Source of the DNA: a phage | Reading direction: 5' to 3' (one strand) | DNA: 64,000 bases | Sequence record: PZ386959.1 | Shown here: one piece after another, positions 46,450 to 48,112 of the stretch | Numbering within the stretch: the stretch's first letter is position 1 | Layout: each line of letters starts with the position of its first letter | Made by a program: the position numbers and the translations under genes | Notes under the pieces: generated by a model | What the model saw: only the letters and a program-made list of their open reading frames with translations | Database searches by the model: none | What the model was told of the DNA's origin: nothing

Positions 46450-46469
46450 TCGACGCAGCGGGACTAAAT

Positions 46470-46515
46470 AGCCCCAGATACCTGAAAAGCTCCTTCTCAT
46501 AGGGGCTTTTTTACG
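46470..46515 (+). terminator. terminator-like hairpin closing the array
   Basis: AGCCCC..(long loop)..GGGGCT followed by TTTTTT. Confidence 0.45.
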
Positions 46516-46519
46516 TCTA

Positions 46520-48060
46520 TGTAATAGCCTCTATACAACCCTTTCCCTTTCCTTCCTAGAATCTATCCCACTAATTCGATAGAATCTATCTCATACCTTA
46601 AAAAGCAATAACTCTATAGTTTACTCTATAACCTTTTATCAAATCAACTTAAATATAAGCCCATAACCCGAAAGGGAAGGGCAACCGTTTAAACGCTCTA
46701 TAAAGCTCTATAACAGCCTTATCAACCTAACTTAAGGGATTGCATTAACTCACCTTAAAAAGCTCTTTACAGGGCTTTATAGAGGCTTAAAAGAATCTTA
46801 TAAGGTTATAAGCTTTATTATCTCGTTAGCTATCTTGTGAACTACTAAAAAGGGGCTTGTTAGTATCTTAAAAGTATGTTATAGGGGCTATAAAGTTACT
46901 CCAAAGTTACGTAAATACTAGCCCCCTTAACATTCTCTTAACAAATTCTTAACAATCCCTACATAGTTATGCTTGTTAGAGACTTGTTAGCCCCTTGTTA
47001 AATCTCTGTTAAGACCACGTAAAAGCCTTGTAAGAGTCTTTGACATAGCCTTAAAAGCTCCTGTAAAGACCCATAAAGAGCTATCTGTACAGTTGGGGGG
47101 TAAATACTAGGAAGAGACTTAAAAGAGCTTACAAGGAGCTATAGAGGGCTTTTAAGAGGTATGTTTAAAGAATCACTAAGAAGCAAAGAGAACGATAAGA
47201 AAGAGTAGTGACCATGTTAATAGCTTGTTAAAAAGATTAGACACTTGTTAGGAACTTGTTAATTATCTTAACAAAATAACTCTTAAAAATTAACTTGTTA
47301 GCTCTTGTTAGTCATCTGTTAAGAGACTATAAAGACCATGTATCGACTGTTAAGAACTTGTTACAGCCTTGTTAGTTCTGTTAAGAATCTGTTAAGACCT
47401 CTGAAGAGATGTTAAGAGAATGTAGTAGCTGTTAAGAGATTGTTAAGGATATTTTAAAATTCTGCAAAGGGGATGTTACAGGGATGTTAAGGGCTACCAA
47501 GCAGATATACATCTTCTACAGATATTTTTCAGTTCCTTCAAAGACTCTAAAAAATGACTTGATAGTCCTATTTTATAAAAATTTTAAAAATCTGAATAAT
47601 CACCTAGACAGTCTTTTAAAAATACAGGTAGAAACAGGCTTATAAGATACCTTGTTAGTGCCGTGTTAGACCTTGTGAGATAAGGTCTGTAAAGATATTC
47701 CTGTTAAGTTTGTTAAAACAGCCTATATAGAGGCTTAGTAATACCTAGTGAACACCTATAGAGAGTATCATAGCTGACATAGAGATTAAGGGGTGTATAG
47801 AGGCTTCTAAGAGCGTATAGAGAGATGGTTAAGGTGATTGTATAGGTTGTTAAGATGGCTTGTTAGAAGAGTGTTTAGAAGGCTTATTAAAGGGCTATTT
47901 AGAAGGGTTATACAGAGGGGCTATTAAGACCACTAGATAGTTACTAAGATACTATATAGTACTATATAACTATATAGAGAGTAAGATTAAGAAGGTTGTT
48001 AAGAAGGATAGATATTTTATTCACATATGATGGTGACCCAGAGGTTGGGACAACCGATAA
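46520..48060. repeat. ORF-free region dense in short direct repeats (CTTGTTAG / CTGTTAAG / TATAGAG families)
   Basis: No ORF of 60 aa or more in any frame across about 1.6 kb; roughly 30 copies of (C)TTGTTA(G/A) or TGTTAAGA between 46850 and 47500, TATAGAG-type repeats 47750-48000. Confidence 0.75.
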
Positions 48061-48075
48061 AATTTTTATAAAAAT

Positions 48076-48101
48076 TAAAAAAGCCCCCAATTAAGGAGGC
48101 T
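48076..48101 (-). terminator. intrinsic terminator (minus strand)
   Basis: Minus-strand read AGCCTCC-TTAATT-GGGGGCT followed by TTTTTT, 3' of gene 48113..48706. Confidence 0.6.
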
Positions 48102-48112
48102 CTTAAGATATT

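What the first reader, a model, noticed from the sequence alone, without database searches (positions are those of the whole stretch)
46450..48112. 1.6-kb ORF-free region packed with short direct repeats between convergent transcription units
Elsewhere the genome is densely coding, yet no frame here holds an ORF of 60 aa or more. The region carries about 30 copies of (C)TTGTTA(G/A) / TGTTAAGA, often in runs (e.g. AACTTGTTAGCTCTTGTTAGTCATCTGTTAAGAG, TCTGTTAAGAATCTGTTAAGACC), plus TATAGAG / CTATAA-type repeats between 47750 and 48000. It lies between the terminator of the plus-strand array and the 3' end of the minus-strand block. Iteron-like repeat density of this kind suits a replication origin, a DNA-binding-protein array or a packaging/injection signal.
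Basis: seen in the sequence. Interest (0 to 1): 0.7.

Follow-up and report, generated by a model that had tools for sequence, protein, structure and literature searches.

The report
Phage genome ends: terminal repeat region
This gene-free, repeat-packed 1.66 kb is where the two ends of a Felix O1-like phage genome meet: its middle about 575 bp is the direct terminal repeat already mapped experimentally in a close relative, so the region is largely explained, although the role of its phased TGTTAAG repeats has not been tested.

Summary
Window 46450-48112 has no conserved ORF. It carries 31 TGTTA(A/G) copies (about 20-fold enriched) and 12 TATAGAG/CTCTATA copies. Overall it holds about 72 degenerate 11-bp units, against 11.5 +/- 3.3 in shuffles.

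The window is a Felixounavirus, and the region is the junction of its genome ends. The 608-bp direct terminal repeat (DTR) that Bal31 digestion and run-off sequencing defined in phage UAB_Phi87 aligns end-to-end with window 46929-47500. Three GenBank relatives that carry both DTR copies (591-628 bp) map to 46921-47498.

The dense TGTTAAG array is therefore the body of the DTR. The CTCTATA and TATAGAG arrays are the unique flanks just inside each genome end.

New detail found here:
- The 19 DTR sites keep phase at 10.35 bp, so they sit on one helix face.
- The motif cores are more conserved than the spacers.
- The non-coding region is more conserved across genera than its flanking genes.
- Indels come in multiples of 11 bp.
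- Both DTR boundaries lie in invariant, mutually inverted blocks.

I infer a packaging (terminase) recognition platform, as at the T7 concatemer junction. Nothing supports an iteron origin.

The region's identity is already known. The function of the repeats is untested.

The parts
46485..46514 (+). Rho-independent terminator that closes the + strand (early-type small gene) block
   Evidence: RNA fold: a 10-bp stem AAAAGCUCCU/AGGGGCUUUU followed by a U run. AYO145A has a terminator annotated at the homologous place.
46515..46920 (.). Unique non-coding flank lying just inside the right-hand DTR copy in virion DNA. It is an array of units mostly in reverse orientation (CTCTATA x5, CTTAAAAAG and similar).
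   Evidence: Motif map and matrix hits are mostly on the - strand. GC skew is negative here. The equivalent flank in Erwinia phage Prophecy uses a different unit, TTCTAAG.
46921..47500 (.). Direct terminal repeat (DTR), present once here because the assembly is collapsed or permuted. Left boundary 46921-46929 (two records suggest 46941-46942); right boundary 47498-47500 (47486 in one record).
   Evidence: The UAB_Phi87 DTR determined by run-off sequencing aligns to 46929-47500. ZX4221, ECP2307 and NBEco004 carry exact 591-, 592- and 628-bp repeats at both record ends, mapping to 46921-47498. At least 12 relatives' records start or stop at or near these boundaries.
46919..46955 (+). Left terminal element: TAGCCCCCTTAACA followed by two more TTAACA units (three in all, at 11-bp spacing). 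It is an inverted copy of the right terminal element.
   Evidence: Inverted repeats I16, I17 and I23. The block is nearly invariant in 10 genomes of 3 genera. The Erwinia phage Prophecy record begins at the homologous AGCCAC...TTAACA.
46974..47491 (+). Array of 19 forward TGTTA(A/G) sites forming the body of the DTR. Local spacing is mostly 11 bp, with long-range phase at 10.35 bp.
   Evidence: Positions and Rayleigh test: R = 0.80 at 10.35 bp, against a null 99.9th percentile of 0.69. Nine of 11 other Felixounavirus, Suspvirus and Mooglevirus DTRs peak at 10.4-10.45 bp, with NBEco004 at 10.3 and Meda at 10.15. Cores are 95.5% conserved against 85.6 +/- 2.7% for random hexamers.
47474..47513 (+). 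Right terminal element and junction box: TGTTACAGGGATGTTAAGGGCTACC|AAGCAGATATACA. It holds the right DTR boundary and is the likely site of terminase recognition and cutting.
   Evidence: GTTAAGGGCTACCAAGCAGATATACA is invariant in all 10 aligned genomes. AGATATACA is retained in Erwinia phage Prophecy at the end of its array.
47514..47640 (.). AT-rich stretch with few units, just inside the left genome end. It contains TTTTATAAAAATTTTA.
   Evidence: Few matrix hits. A 16-nt perfect inverted partner lies at 48058-48073 (I25). JH2 and Moogle carry a 24-bp insertion at about 47513.
47641..48020 (+). Unique non-coding flank lying just inside the left-hand DTR copy. It is an array of forward units (TGTTAR x7, TATAGAG x5, TTAAGA).
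   Evidence: GC skew is positive, +0.26.
48079..48104 (-). Rho-independent terminator that closes the - strand gene block
   Evidence: Terminator scan: 10 pairs plus a T run. AYO145A and Moogle have terminators annotated at the homologous place.

Best explanation
The region is the concatemer junction of a Felix O1-like (Felixounavirus) genome. Its centre, about 46921/46929 to 47498/47500, is the short exact direct terminal repeat found at both ends of the packaged linear DNA. The 0.4 kb to its left and 0.6 kb to its right are the last unique, non-coding DNA before each end. The neighbouring genes are transcribed outward and stop at terminators.

Shown: the position of the ends (experimental in a relative, and in records that carry both DTR copies), the repeat architecture and its conservation.

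Inferred: the TGTTAAG sites sit one helical turn apart on one face of the DNA and load an oligomeric packaging protein, most likely the small terminase subunit or a terminase accessory factor. The DNA may wrap around it. That complex would place the nuclease at the two conserved, mutually inverted boundary boxes (TAGCCCCCTTAACA and TGTTAAGGGCTACC|AAGCAGATATACA). The single junction copy of the repeat would then be duplicated during cutting, as in T7-type phages.

My confidence that the region is the terminus and DTR is about 0.95. My confidence that the repeats act as a platform for a packaging protein is about 0.4.
For: (1) Identity. The window is a Felixounavirus: 257 phage records match the region, 183 over at least 80% of it.

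(2) Experimental anchor. Bardina et al. 2016 (PMC4837284) used Bal31 digestion and run-off sequencing to define a 608-bp DTR in UAB_Phi87. The published sequence (Fig. S1) aligns end-to-end to window 46929-47500, and to exactly 608 bp of the UAB_Phi87 GenBank record. The two SpeI sites that flank the region in UAB_Phi87 predict end fragments of about 4.43 and 2.74 kb (my arithmetic). The Bal31-sensitive fragments were reported as 4322 and 2819 bp, which is roughly consistent.

(3) Independent records. ZX4221, ECP2307 and NBEco004 carry exact 591-, 592- and 628-bp repeats at both record ends, mapping to 46921-47498. MET-P1-301 carries 544 bp mapping to 46942-47486. Many other records start or stop at or near these points. 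PhageTerm reports give 581-bp and 613-bp DTRs in relatives.

(4) Distant relative. The Erwinia phage Prophecy record starts at the homologous left box and has a TGTTAAG array from 1 to about 420, ending at AGATATACA. A published announcement of other Erwinia FelixO1-like phages set base 1 from PhageTerm output. Whether Prophecy's record was set the same way is my inference.

(5) Selection on the non-coding DNA. Across genera the DTR is 76-80% identical over 100% of its length, against 67-73% over only 48-96% of the length for the flanking genes. The TGTTAR cores are 95.5% conserved against 85.6 +/- 2.7% for random hexamers, with none of 10,000 permutations reaching the observed value.

(6) Geometry. 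The 19 sites are phase-coherent at 10.35 bp with R = 0.80, beyond the null 99.9th percentile. Among 11 other DTRs of 571-628 bp, nine peak at 10.4-10.45 bp, with NBEco004 at 10.3 and Meda at 10.15. Indels cluster at 11, 21-23 and 32 nt, with none at 4-10 or 14-20.

(7) The two DTR extremities are inverted copies of each other (I16/I17/I23).

(8) Analogy. The T7 terminal repeat also contains, and is flanked on both sides by, arrays of a short direct repeat (CCTAAAG, mostly 13-bp spacing).
Against: - No reads or virion DNA exist for this particular phage, so its ends are inferred by homology (86-93% identity).
- Sources disagree on the boundaries: 46921, 46929 or 46941/2 on the left, and 47486, 47498 or 47500 on the right.
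- The predicted SpeI end fragments differ from the published sizes by about 75-110 bp.
- No binding protein is identified. The terminase genes were not identified in the window. The neighbouring genes have no recognisable domains.
- The unit arrays extend 400-600 bp beyond the DTR. A smaller array of similar 11-bp units sits in an early promoter and leader region at 10657-10820. The units may therefore serve a structural or transcriptional role not specific to packaging.
- As far as I know, the role of the analogous T7 repeats has never been firmly established (own knowledge).
- The relatives used for the phase and conservation tests are not independent lineages. In the one distant relative the phase signal is borderline.
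Confidence: 0.85

Rival explanations
1. Replication origin. The repeats are iterons bound by a phage initiator, and the AT-rich stretch at 47560-47620 is the unwinding element. Replication starts at or near the genome ends.
For: The region has a dense array of direct repeats next to an AT-rich stretch. Cumulative GC skew has a local maximum here. T7 has its phiOL and phiOR promoters close to its ends (record annotation); these are known as secondary replication origins (own knowledge), so the two roles need not exclude each other.
Against: There are about 70 units with a 6-7-bp core at 11-bp spacing spread over 1.6 kb, unlike the few 17-22-bp iterons I expect at origins (iteron sizes are own knowledge). 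DnaA boxes are not enriched: 24 in the window against 20.5 expected, and only one 1-mismatch box in the region. The neighbouring genes show no initiator, helicase or primase domains. The skew turn coincides with the convergent switch in transcription and with the orientation of the motif itself. The physical ends map here, which already accounts for the conservation.
Confidence: 0.1
2. An element for DNA entry or end protection rather than packaging. The terminal 1 kb is the first DNA to enter the cell, and the phased sites bind a phage or host protein that protects the end from RecBCD, anchors it, or pulls in the rest of the genome.
For: The arrays sit at both physical ends and extend beyond the DTR. 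No genes need to be expressed from the terminal 1 kb, because the neighbouring genes point outward. On the opposite strand every TGTTAA reads TTAACA, a 5-of-6 match to the sigma-70 -35 hexamer. One decent leftward promoter-like site lies at 47353-47326, matching 10 of 12.
Against: Promoter-like sites are only mildly above the shuffled expectation, 13 against 7.6 +/- 2.9. There is no strong inward-pointing promoter. No candidate protein is known. The strongest conservation is at the cut-site boxes, which points to terminase.
Confidence: 0.15
3. No sequence-specific function. The region is spacer DNA between two converging transcription units, filled by slippage-driven expansion of an 11-bp unit, and the DTR merely happens to lie in it.
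For: Indels of whole units (11, 21-23, 32 nt) show ongoing slippage or unequal exchange. The units are degenerate.
Against: Across genera the region is more conserved than the flanking protein genes. Cores are conserved above spacers, with none of 10,000 permutations reaching the observed value. The one-face phase of about 10.4 bp is kept despite changes in length. The TGTTAAG array persists in an Erwinia phage with almost no other nucleotide similarity.
Confidence: 0.05
4. The region encodes a non-coding RNA or small proteins.
For: Some GenBank records annotate 25-53-aa ORFs here.
Against: There is no Rfam match better than E = 0.04, and those two weak hits lie over or beyond the - strand terminator (48074-48167), well below their gathering scores. 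The largest ORF is broken in 7 of 9 relatives. There is no strong promoter. Terminators face into the region from both sides.
Confidence: 0.03

Closest known systems
Direct terminal repeat of Felixounavirus UAB_Phi87 (Bardina et al. 2016, PMC4837284, Fig. S1); DTRs reported by PhageTerm for Pr103Blw (581 bp) and Ro111lw (613 bp)
   Same: It is the homologous sequence. The published repeat aligns end-to-end to window 46929-47500 at 86% identity in the text copy of the figure. The size class matches (572-580 bp here, 544-628 bp in relatives). It has the same TTAACA start and GGGCTACCAA end.
   Different: This is a different phage isolate; the best database match to the region is 92%. The parts of the published work that I searched report length and sequence only. 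I found no description there of the phased TGTTAAG array, the inverted terminal boxes, the flanking unit arrays or their conservation. That is an absence in what I searched, not proof that no one has described them.
Bacteriophage T7 concatemer junction: the 160-bp terminal repeat with CCTAAAG short-repeat arrays inside it and on both flanks (the names SRL/SRR are from Dunn and Studier 1983, own knowledge)
   Same: A short exact DTR is bracketed on both sides by tens of copies of a short direct repeat at roughly one-turn spacing, in non-coding DNA at the genome ends (read directly in T7). Terminase cuts at fixed sites and the repeat is duplicated during packaging (own knowledge).
   Different: The unit sequence and period differ: CCTAAAG, mostly at 13 bp, against TGTTAAG at 11 bp locally and 10.35 bp in long-range phase. 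The Felix-type matrix does not pick out the T7 arrays. All T7 units point the same way, whereas here the orientation flips at about 46960. T7 has promoters in its left flank and none is evident here. T7 is an unrelated podovirus.
Packaging sites recognised through phased short repeats: the P1 pac site (TGATCA/G hexamers on both sides of the cut) and SPP1 pacL/pacR boxes bound by the small terminase G1P (own knowledge)
   Same: Short motifs are repeated at about one-turn spacing on either side of a terminase cleavage region, and the DNA is thought to wrap an oligomeric small terminase. Here three reversed and four forward units flank 46962, near the left boundary.
   Different: Those phages package by the headful mechanism and have permuted ends. 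This lineage has exact, non-permuted DTRs. The arrays here are far longer, about 70 units. No binding has been shown.
Iteron-type replication origins of plasmids and phages
   Same: Clustered direct repeats lie next to an AT-rich stretch.
   Different: Unit size and number, the absence of DnaA boxes and the absence of an adjacent initiator gene all differ.

Membership tests
Short exact direct terminal repeat (T7-type, non-permuted) genome ends | The same sequence of a few hundred bp is present at both ends of the virion DNA | tested here: met
   Met in homologues. ZX4221, ECP2307 and NBEco004 carry exact 591-, 592- and 628-bp repeats at both record ends, mapping to window 46921-47498. The experimentally determined UAB_Phi87 DTR maps to 46929-47500.
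Short exact direct terminal repeat (T7-type, non-permuted) genome ends | Ends shown directly for this phage's own virion DNA | not testable with these tools
   Only the assembled window is available, with no reads or restriction data. The window shows the collapsed junction form with a single DTR copy.
Short exact direct terminal repeat (T7-type, non-permuted) genome ends | Fixed (non-permuted) end positions | tested here: met
   At least 12 independent relatives' records begin or end within about 20 bp of the same two positions. Bal31 digestion degrades two specific SpeI fragments in UAB_Phi87. The SpeI sites flank the region.
Short exact direct terminal repeat (T7-type, non-permuted) genome ends | The large terminase clusters with DTR-type terminases | not tested
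   I did not identify a terminase gene in the 64-kb window. PMC4837284 reports that Felix O1-type large terminases form their own DTR cluster.
T7-like flanking short-repeat arrays (SRL/SRR) | Arrays of a short direct repeat abut the terminal repeat on both sides | tested here: met
   Units fill 46596-46920 and 47640-48010 on either side of the DTR. The T7 arrays were read directly for comparison.
T7-like flanking short-repeat arrays (SRL/SRR) | Same repeat unit, or sequence homology | tested here: not met
   T7 has CCTAAAG at mostly 13-bp spacing. The Felix-type matrix scores only scattered weak hits in the T7 ends. This is an analogy, not homology.
Iteron replication origin | A few 17-22-bp iterons, an AT-rich unwinding element, DnaA boxes and an adjacent initiator gene (feature list from own knowledge) | tested here: not met
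   There are about 72 units of 11 bp, no DnaA-box enrichment, and no recognisable domain in the 9 neighbouring proteins. An AT-rich stretch does exist at 47560-47620.
Headful pac site | One cut site with permuted, terminally redundant genomes | tested here: not met
   Relatives have exact repeats with fixed boundaries.
Known non-coding RNA family (Rfam 15) | A covariance-model match at or near the gathering score | tested here: not met
   The best hits are E = 0.041 and 0.93, both far below their gathering scores and both lying over or beyond the - strand terminator at the right edge (48074-48167).
Binding array for the small terminase or another packaging protein | Specific protein binding to the TGTTAAG units | not testable with these tools
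   Only indirect support exists: one-face phase, core conservation and whole-unit indels.

The most novel reading that the evidence does not exclude
The about 70 phased units (TGTTAAG in the DTR, CTCTATA/TATAGAG in the flanks) form a 1.6-kb nucleoprotein scaffold conserved across Ounavirinae, from Salmonella and E. coli phages to Erwinia phages. An oligomeric phage protein (small terminase or an unknown factor) would coat or wrap one face of the DNA outward from the orientation switch at about 46960 and define both end cuts. This would be a packaging-recognition architecture much larger and more regular than the cos or pac sites described so far. The same unit type at the early promoter (10657-10820) might tie it to transcription or DNA structure.
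Probability: 0.3. Interest if true: 0.5.

Novelty: already known. Interest (0 to 1): 0.3.

Why it matters
It settles what looked like an enigmatic 1.66-kb gap. The region is the genome terminus of Felix O1-type phages, which are widely used for Salmonella and E. coli typing, biocontrol and therapy.

Practical consequences:
- Many GenBank records of this group are opened arbitrarily, omit the second repeat copy, or annotate spurious small ORFs here.
- Engineering platforms that already work on a Felixounavirus, such as PhageMaP on Bas63, should treat this region as cis-essential.

The one-face phasing, the inverted boundary boxes and the whole-unit indels give a concrete, testable picture of how a short-DTR myovirus terminase might find its cut sites. 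As far as I know this question is poorly understood outside T7.

Tried and rejected
- Rfam scan of 46000-48600 at a permissive threshold returned only two chance-level hits over or beyond the right-hand terminator.
- tRNA scan found none in the region; the 26 tRNA genes lie at 58.5-63.6 kb.
- Sigma-70 promoter scan found 13 sites against 7.6 +/- 2.9 expected, none strong or obviously inward-pointing. I did not pursue this.
- DnaA-box search showed no enrichment.
- Pfam and PHROGs scans of the 9 neighbouring proteins returned only families of unknown function, so no candidate binder or initiator emerged.
- GC skew was rejected as origin evidence because it follows gene direction and motif orientation.
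- The base-composition Fourier spectrum of the whole region gave only a modest 10-11.5-bp peak, because register drifts between unit blocks. Lag autocorrelation and site-level phase analysis were the informative measures.
- I first suspected that SUSP2 keeps this region AT-rich against a GC-rich genome. Its flanks are 36-38% GC, so there is no contrast, and I dropped the idea.
Many of the rest have a 12-bp period and are probably coding tandem repeats (48 of the 136 spacing patterns counted). Sixty-one loci with no nucleotide match to the window carry 10-11-bp arrays (their coding status was not checked), but without a control motif the count means little. One such contig shares no proteins with the window.
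- The UAB_Phi87 GenBank record is not opened at its physical ends, so its first bases were uninformative. The supplement sequence was needed.
- I did not run a DNA-curvature model, because I could not vouch for the wedge parameters from memory.
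Full report
OBSERVATION

The sequence at 46450-48112 lies between the stop codon of an 82-aa + strand ORF (46201-46449) and the stop codon of a 197-aa - strand ORF (48113-48706). Inside it the longest ORFs are 53, 42 and 32 aa. The 53-aa ORF (47484-47645) has lost its start codon, carries in-frame stops or is frameshifted in most relatives. It is not a gene, although several GenBank records annotate small ORFs here.

TGTTA[AG] occurs 27 times forward and 4 times reverse, 16.2/kb against 0.83/kb outside. 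TATAGAG occurs 7 times forward and 5 times reverse, against 3 copies in the rest of the window.

The region is really a degenerate array of 11-bp units:
- 3-mer self-similarity at lag 11 has z = 18.5, with harmonics at 20-22 and 31-33.
- An iteratively refined matrix (consensus GCTTGTTAAGA) finds 72 non-overlapping units, against 11.5 +/- 3.3 in shuffles.
- No other 200-bp bin of the window holds 5 or more strong units.

Unit orientation flips at about 46960. Units to the left are mostly reversed (CTCTATA, TTAACA). Units to the right are forward (TGTTAAG, TATAGAG). This produces the local GC-skew swing from -0.13 to +0.26. Two convergent terminators bracket the region.

WHAT IT IS

The window is a Felix O1-like myovirus. 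The region matches 257 phage records, nearly all Felixounavirus, Suspvirus or Mooglevirus, with a best identity of 92%. In all of them it is a gap of about 1.6 kb without credible genes, between the same convergent genes.

The key clue was that many relatives' records start or stop inside the region. Three records carry exact repeats at both ends: ZX4221 (591 bp), ECP2307 (592 bp) and NBEco004 (628 bp). All three map to window 46921-47498. MET-P1-301 carries 544 bp mapping to 46942-47486.

The literature supplies an experimental anchor. Bardina et al. 2016 (PMC4837284) showed that Felixounavirus UAB_Phi87 has non-permuted ends with a 608-bp direct terminal repeat, using Bal31 digestion and run-off sequencing. 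They printed the sequence in Fig. S1.
- That sequence aligns end-to-end to window 46929-47500.
- It also aligns to exactly 608 bp of the UAB_Phi87 GenBank record.
- The two SpeI sites flanking the region in UAB_Phi87 predict end fragments of about 4.43 and 2.74 kb (my arithmetic). The Bal31-sensitive fragments were reported as 4322 and 2819 bp. The match is rough, not exact.

PhageTerm-based reports give 581-bp and 613-bp DTRs in other members. The original Felix O1 paper had already inferred short terminal repeats.

The dense TGTTAAG array is therefore the body of the phage's direct terminal repeat. The window shows the collapsed concatemer-junction form: right-end flank (46515-46920), DTR, then left-end flank (47501-48078).

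NEW ANATOMICAL DETAIL

(i) Boundary boxes. The two extremities of the DTR are inverted copies of each other. The left one reads TAGCCCCCTTAACATTCTCTTAACA and the right one TGTTACAGGGATGTTAAGGGCTA (I16/I17/I23). Both boundaries lie in blocks that are invariant or nearly so in 10 genomes from three genera. GTTAAGGGCTACCAAGCAGATATACA spans the right boundary without a single change.

(ii) One helix face. Neighbouring sites are mostly 11 bp apart, yet the 19 forward sites in the DTR are phase-coherent over 511 bp at a period of 10.35 bp. R is 0.80 against a null 99.9th percentile of 0.69 for the best of all scanned periods. That period is essentially the helical repeat of B-DNA, so all sites face the same side. 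Among 11 other Felixounavirus, Suspvirus and Mooglevirus DTRs of 571-628 bp, nine peak at 10.4-10.45 bp, with NBEco004 at 10.3 and Meda at 10.15. In the Erwinia relative the best period is 9.9 bp and the signal is borderline.

(iii) Indels among relatives cluster at 11, 21-23 and 32 nt. None fall at 4-10 or 14-20 nt. Whole units are gained and lost.

(iv) Selection on the DNA itself. Across genera the DTR is 76-80% identical over its full length. The flanking protein genes are 67-73% identical over only 48-96% of their length. The TGTTAR cores are 95.5% conserved against 85.6 +/- 2.7% for random hexamers from the same stretch, and none of 10,000 permutations reached the observed value. The conservation profile dips in each spacer.

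(v) Depth. Erwinia phage Prophecy shares only a 76-bp BLAST hit with the DTR query. Its record nevertheless starts at the homologous left box (AGCCACTTTTACATTTCGTTAACA) and carries a TGTTAAG array to about position 420, ending at AGATATACA. Its flank uses a different unit, TTCTAAG, in place of CTCTATA. Published Erwinia relatives were opened at base 1 from PhageTerm output. Whether Prophecy's record was set the same way is my inference.

HOW IT MOST LIKELY WORKS

Shown: the ends are here, the boundaries are conserved, and the repeated cores are under selection and share a helical face.

Inferred: an oligomeric DNA-binding component of the packaging machinery binds the phased sites cooperatively. 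The small terminase subunit is the obvious candidate, and the DNA may wrap around it. The complex would position the nuclease at the two inverted boundary boxes. The single junction copy of the repeat would be duplicated during cutting, as is accepted for T7-type phages (own knowledge).

I put the identity claim at about 0.95 and this mechanism for the repeats at about 0.4. The main alternative roles for the repeats are end protection or DNA entry (0.15), an origin (0.1) and no function (0.05).

RIVALS

- Origin. The unit size and number are unlike iterons as I know them (own knowledge). DnaA boxes are not enriched. The neighbouring proteins have no recognisable domains. The skew is explained by transcription and motif orientation. 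Secondary origins do sit near the T7 ends (own knowledge; the phiOL and phiOR promoters are annotated), so an origin cannot be excluded.
- ncRNA or small ORFs. There is no Rfam match, no conserved ORF and no strong promoter.
- Neutral slippage. This is contradicted by the conservation and phase data.

COMPARISON WITH KNOWN SYSTEMS

The region is the homologue of the published UAB_Phi87 DTR, so its identity is already known for the genus. I found no description of the repeat architecture in the papers I searched.

Functionally the nearest analogue is the T7 concatemer junction. Reading the T7 ends directly shows CCTAAAG units inside the 160-bp repeat and in arrays on both flanks, mostly 13 bp apart. 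The design is the same, but the unit, the period and the uniform orientation all differ. It is an analogy, not homology.

The P1 pac and SPP1 pac sites also use phased short repeats for terminase recognition (own knowledge). Those phages package by the headful mechanism and have permuted ends, which relatives of this phage do not.

VERDICT

The region's identity is already known as the Felixounavirus terminal repeat and concatemer junction.

The remaining interest lies in the one-face TGTTAAG array and the inverted boundary boxes, which form a testable model for how terminase recognises a short DTR. Interest 0.3.

Noticed in passing
window 10594-10886: A second, smaller array with 11-bp periodicity, the only other place in the window that passes the lag-11 screen. 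It sits in the gap between a 909-aa - strand ORF (ends 10593) and a 140-aa + strand ORF (starts 10821). Two TTGACA hexamers (10624, 10636) are followed by about 14 CTTAAAAG-type units, which would form the promoter-proximal leader of the + strand early block.
   Followed up: partly
L098-L101 (IMGVR_UViG_3300042863_002604, 81 kb); also L066-L068: An unrelated viral contig with no protein similarity to the window carries perfect tandem arrays of the 11-bp unit AGAACTTGTTA (5-11 copies) at four or more apparently intergenic sites. The same unit occurs in the window, for example GAACTTGTTA at 47252 and 47354. Sixty-one loci with no nucleotide match to the window carry TGTTAAG arrays at 10-11-bp spacing. 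No control motif was scanned, so the significance is unknown.
   Followed up: partly
GU169904.1 'Staphylococcus phage SA1' 135884-136463 (hit H100): A 147-kb record labelled as a Staphylococcus phage contains a 90%-identical copy of the Felixounavirus DTR. It is probably a chimeric or contaminated assembly.
   Followed up: no
window 47571-47586 and 48058-48073: An AT-rich 16-nt element, TTTTATAAAAATTTTA, and its perfect inverted (near-palindromic) partner bracket the left-end flank array. The second copy abuts the - strand terminator. Its function is unknown.
   Followed up: no
window ~47513 (alignment of 10 relatives): JH2 and Moogle carry a 24-bp insertion (ATGAGGTAGATTCTACCGAATCAA) immediately after the invariant right-boundary box. 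It is shared by members of two different genera.
   Followed up: no
window 58545-63556: A cluster of 26 tRNA genes on the + strand, typical of Felix O1-like phages.
   Followed up: no
L003, L015, L019, L023 (Meda_102-104, JH2_127, ESh21 small CDSs, Phi87_32-34): Several GenBank records annotate 25-53-aa hypothetical proteins inside the terminal-repeat region. The largest, which corresponds to window 47484-47645, is not conserved as a reading frame, so these are probably over-annotations.
   Followed up: partly
Records of relatives: The left DTR boundary is given as 46921 (3 records), 46929 (run-off sequencing) or 46941-46942 (REP10, MET-P1-301, Seyj1-1). The 20-bp discrepancy spans about two TTAACA units. 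It may reflect method artefacts or real heterogeneity of the ends.
   Followed up: no
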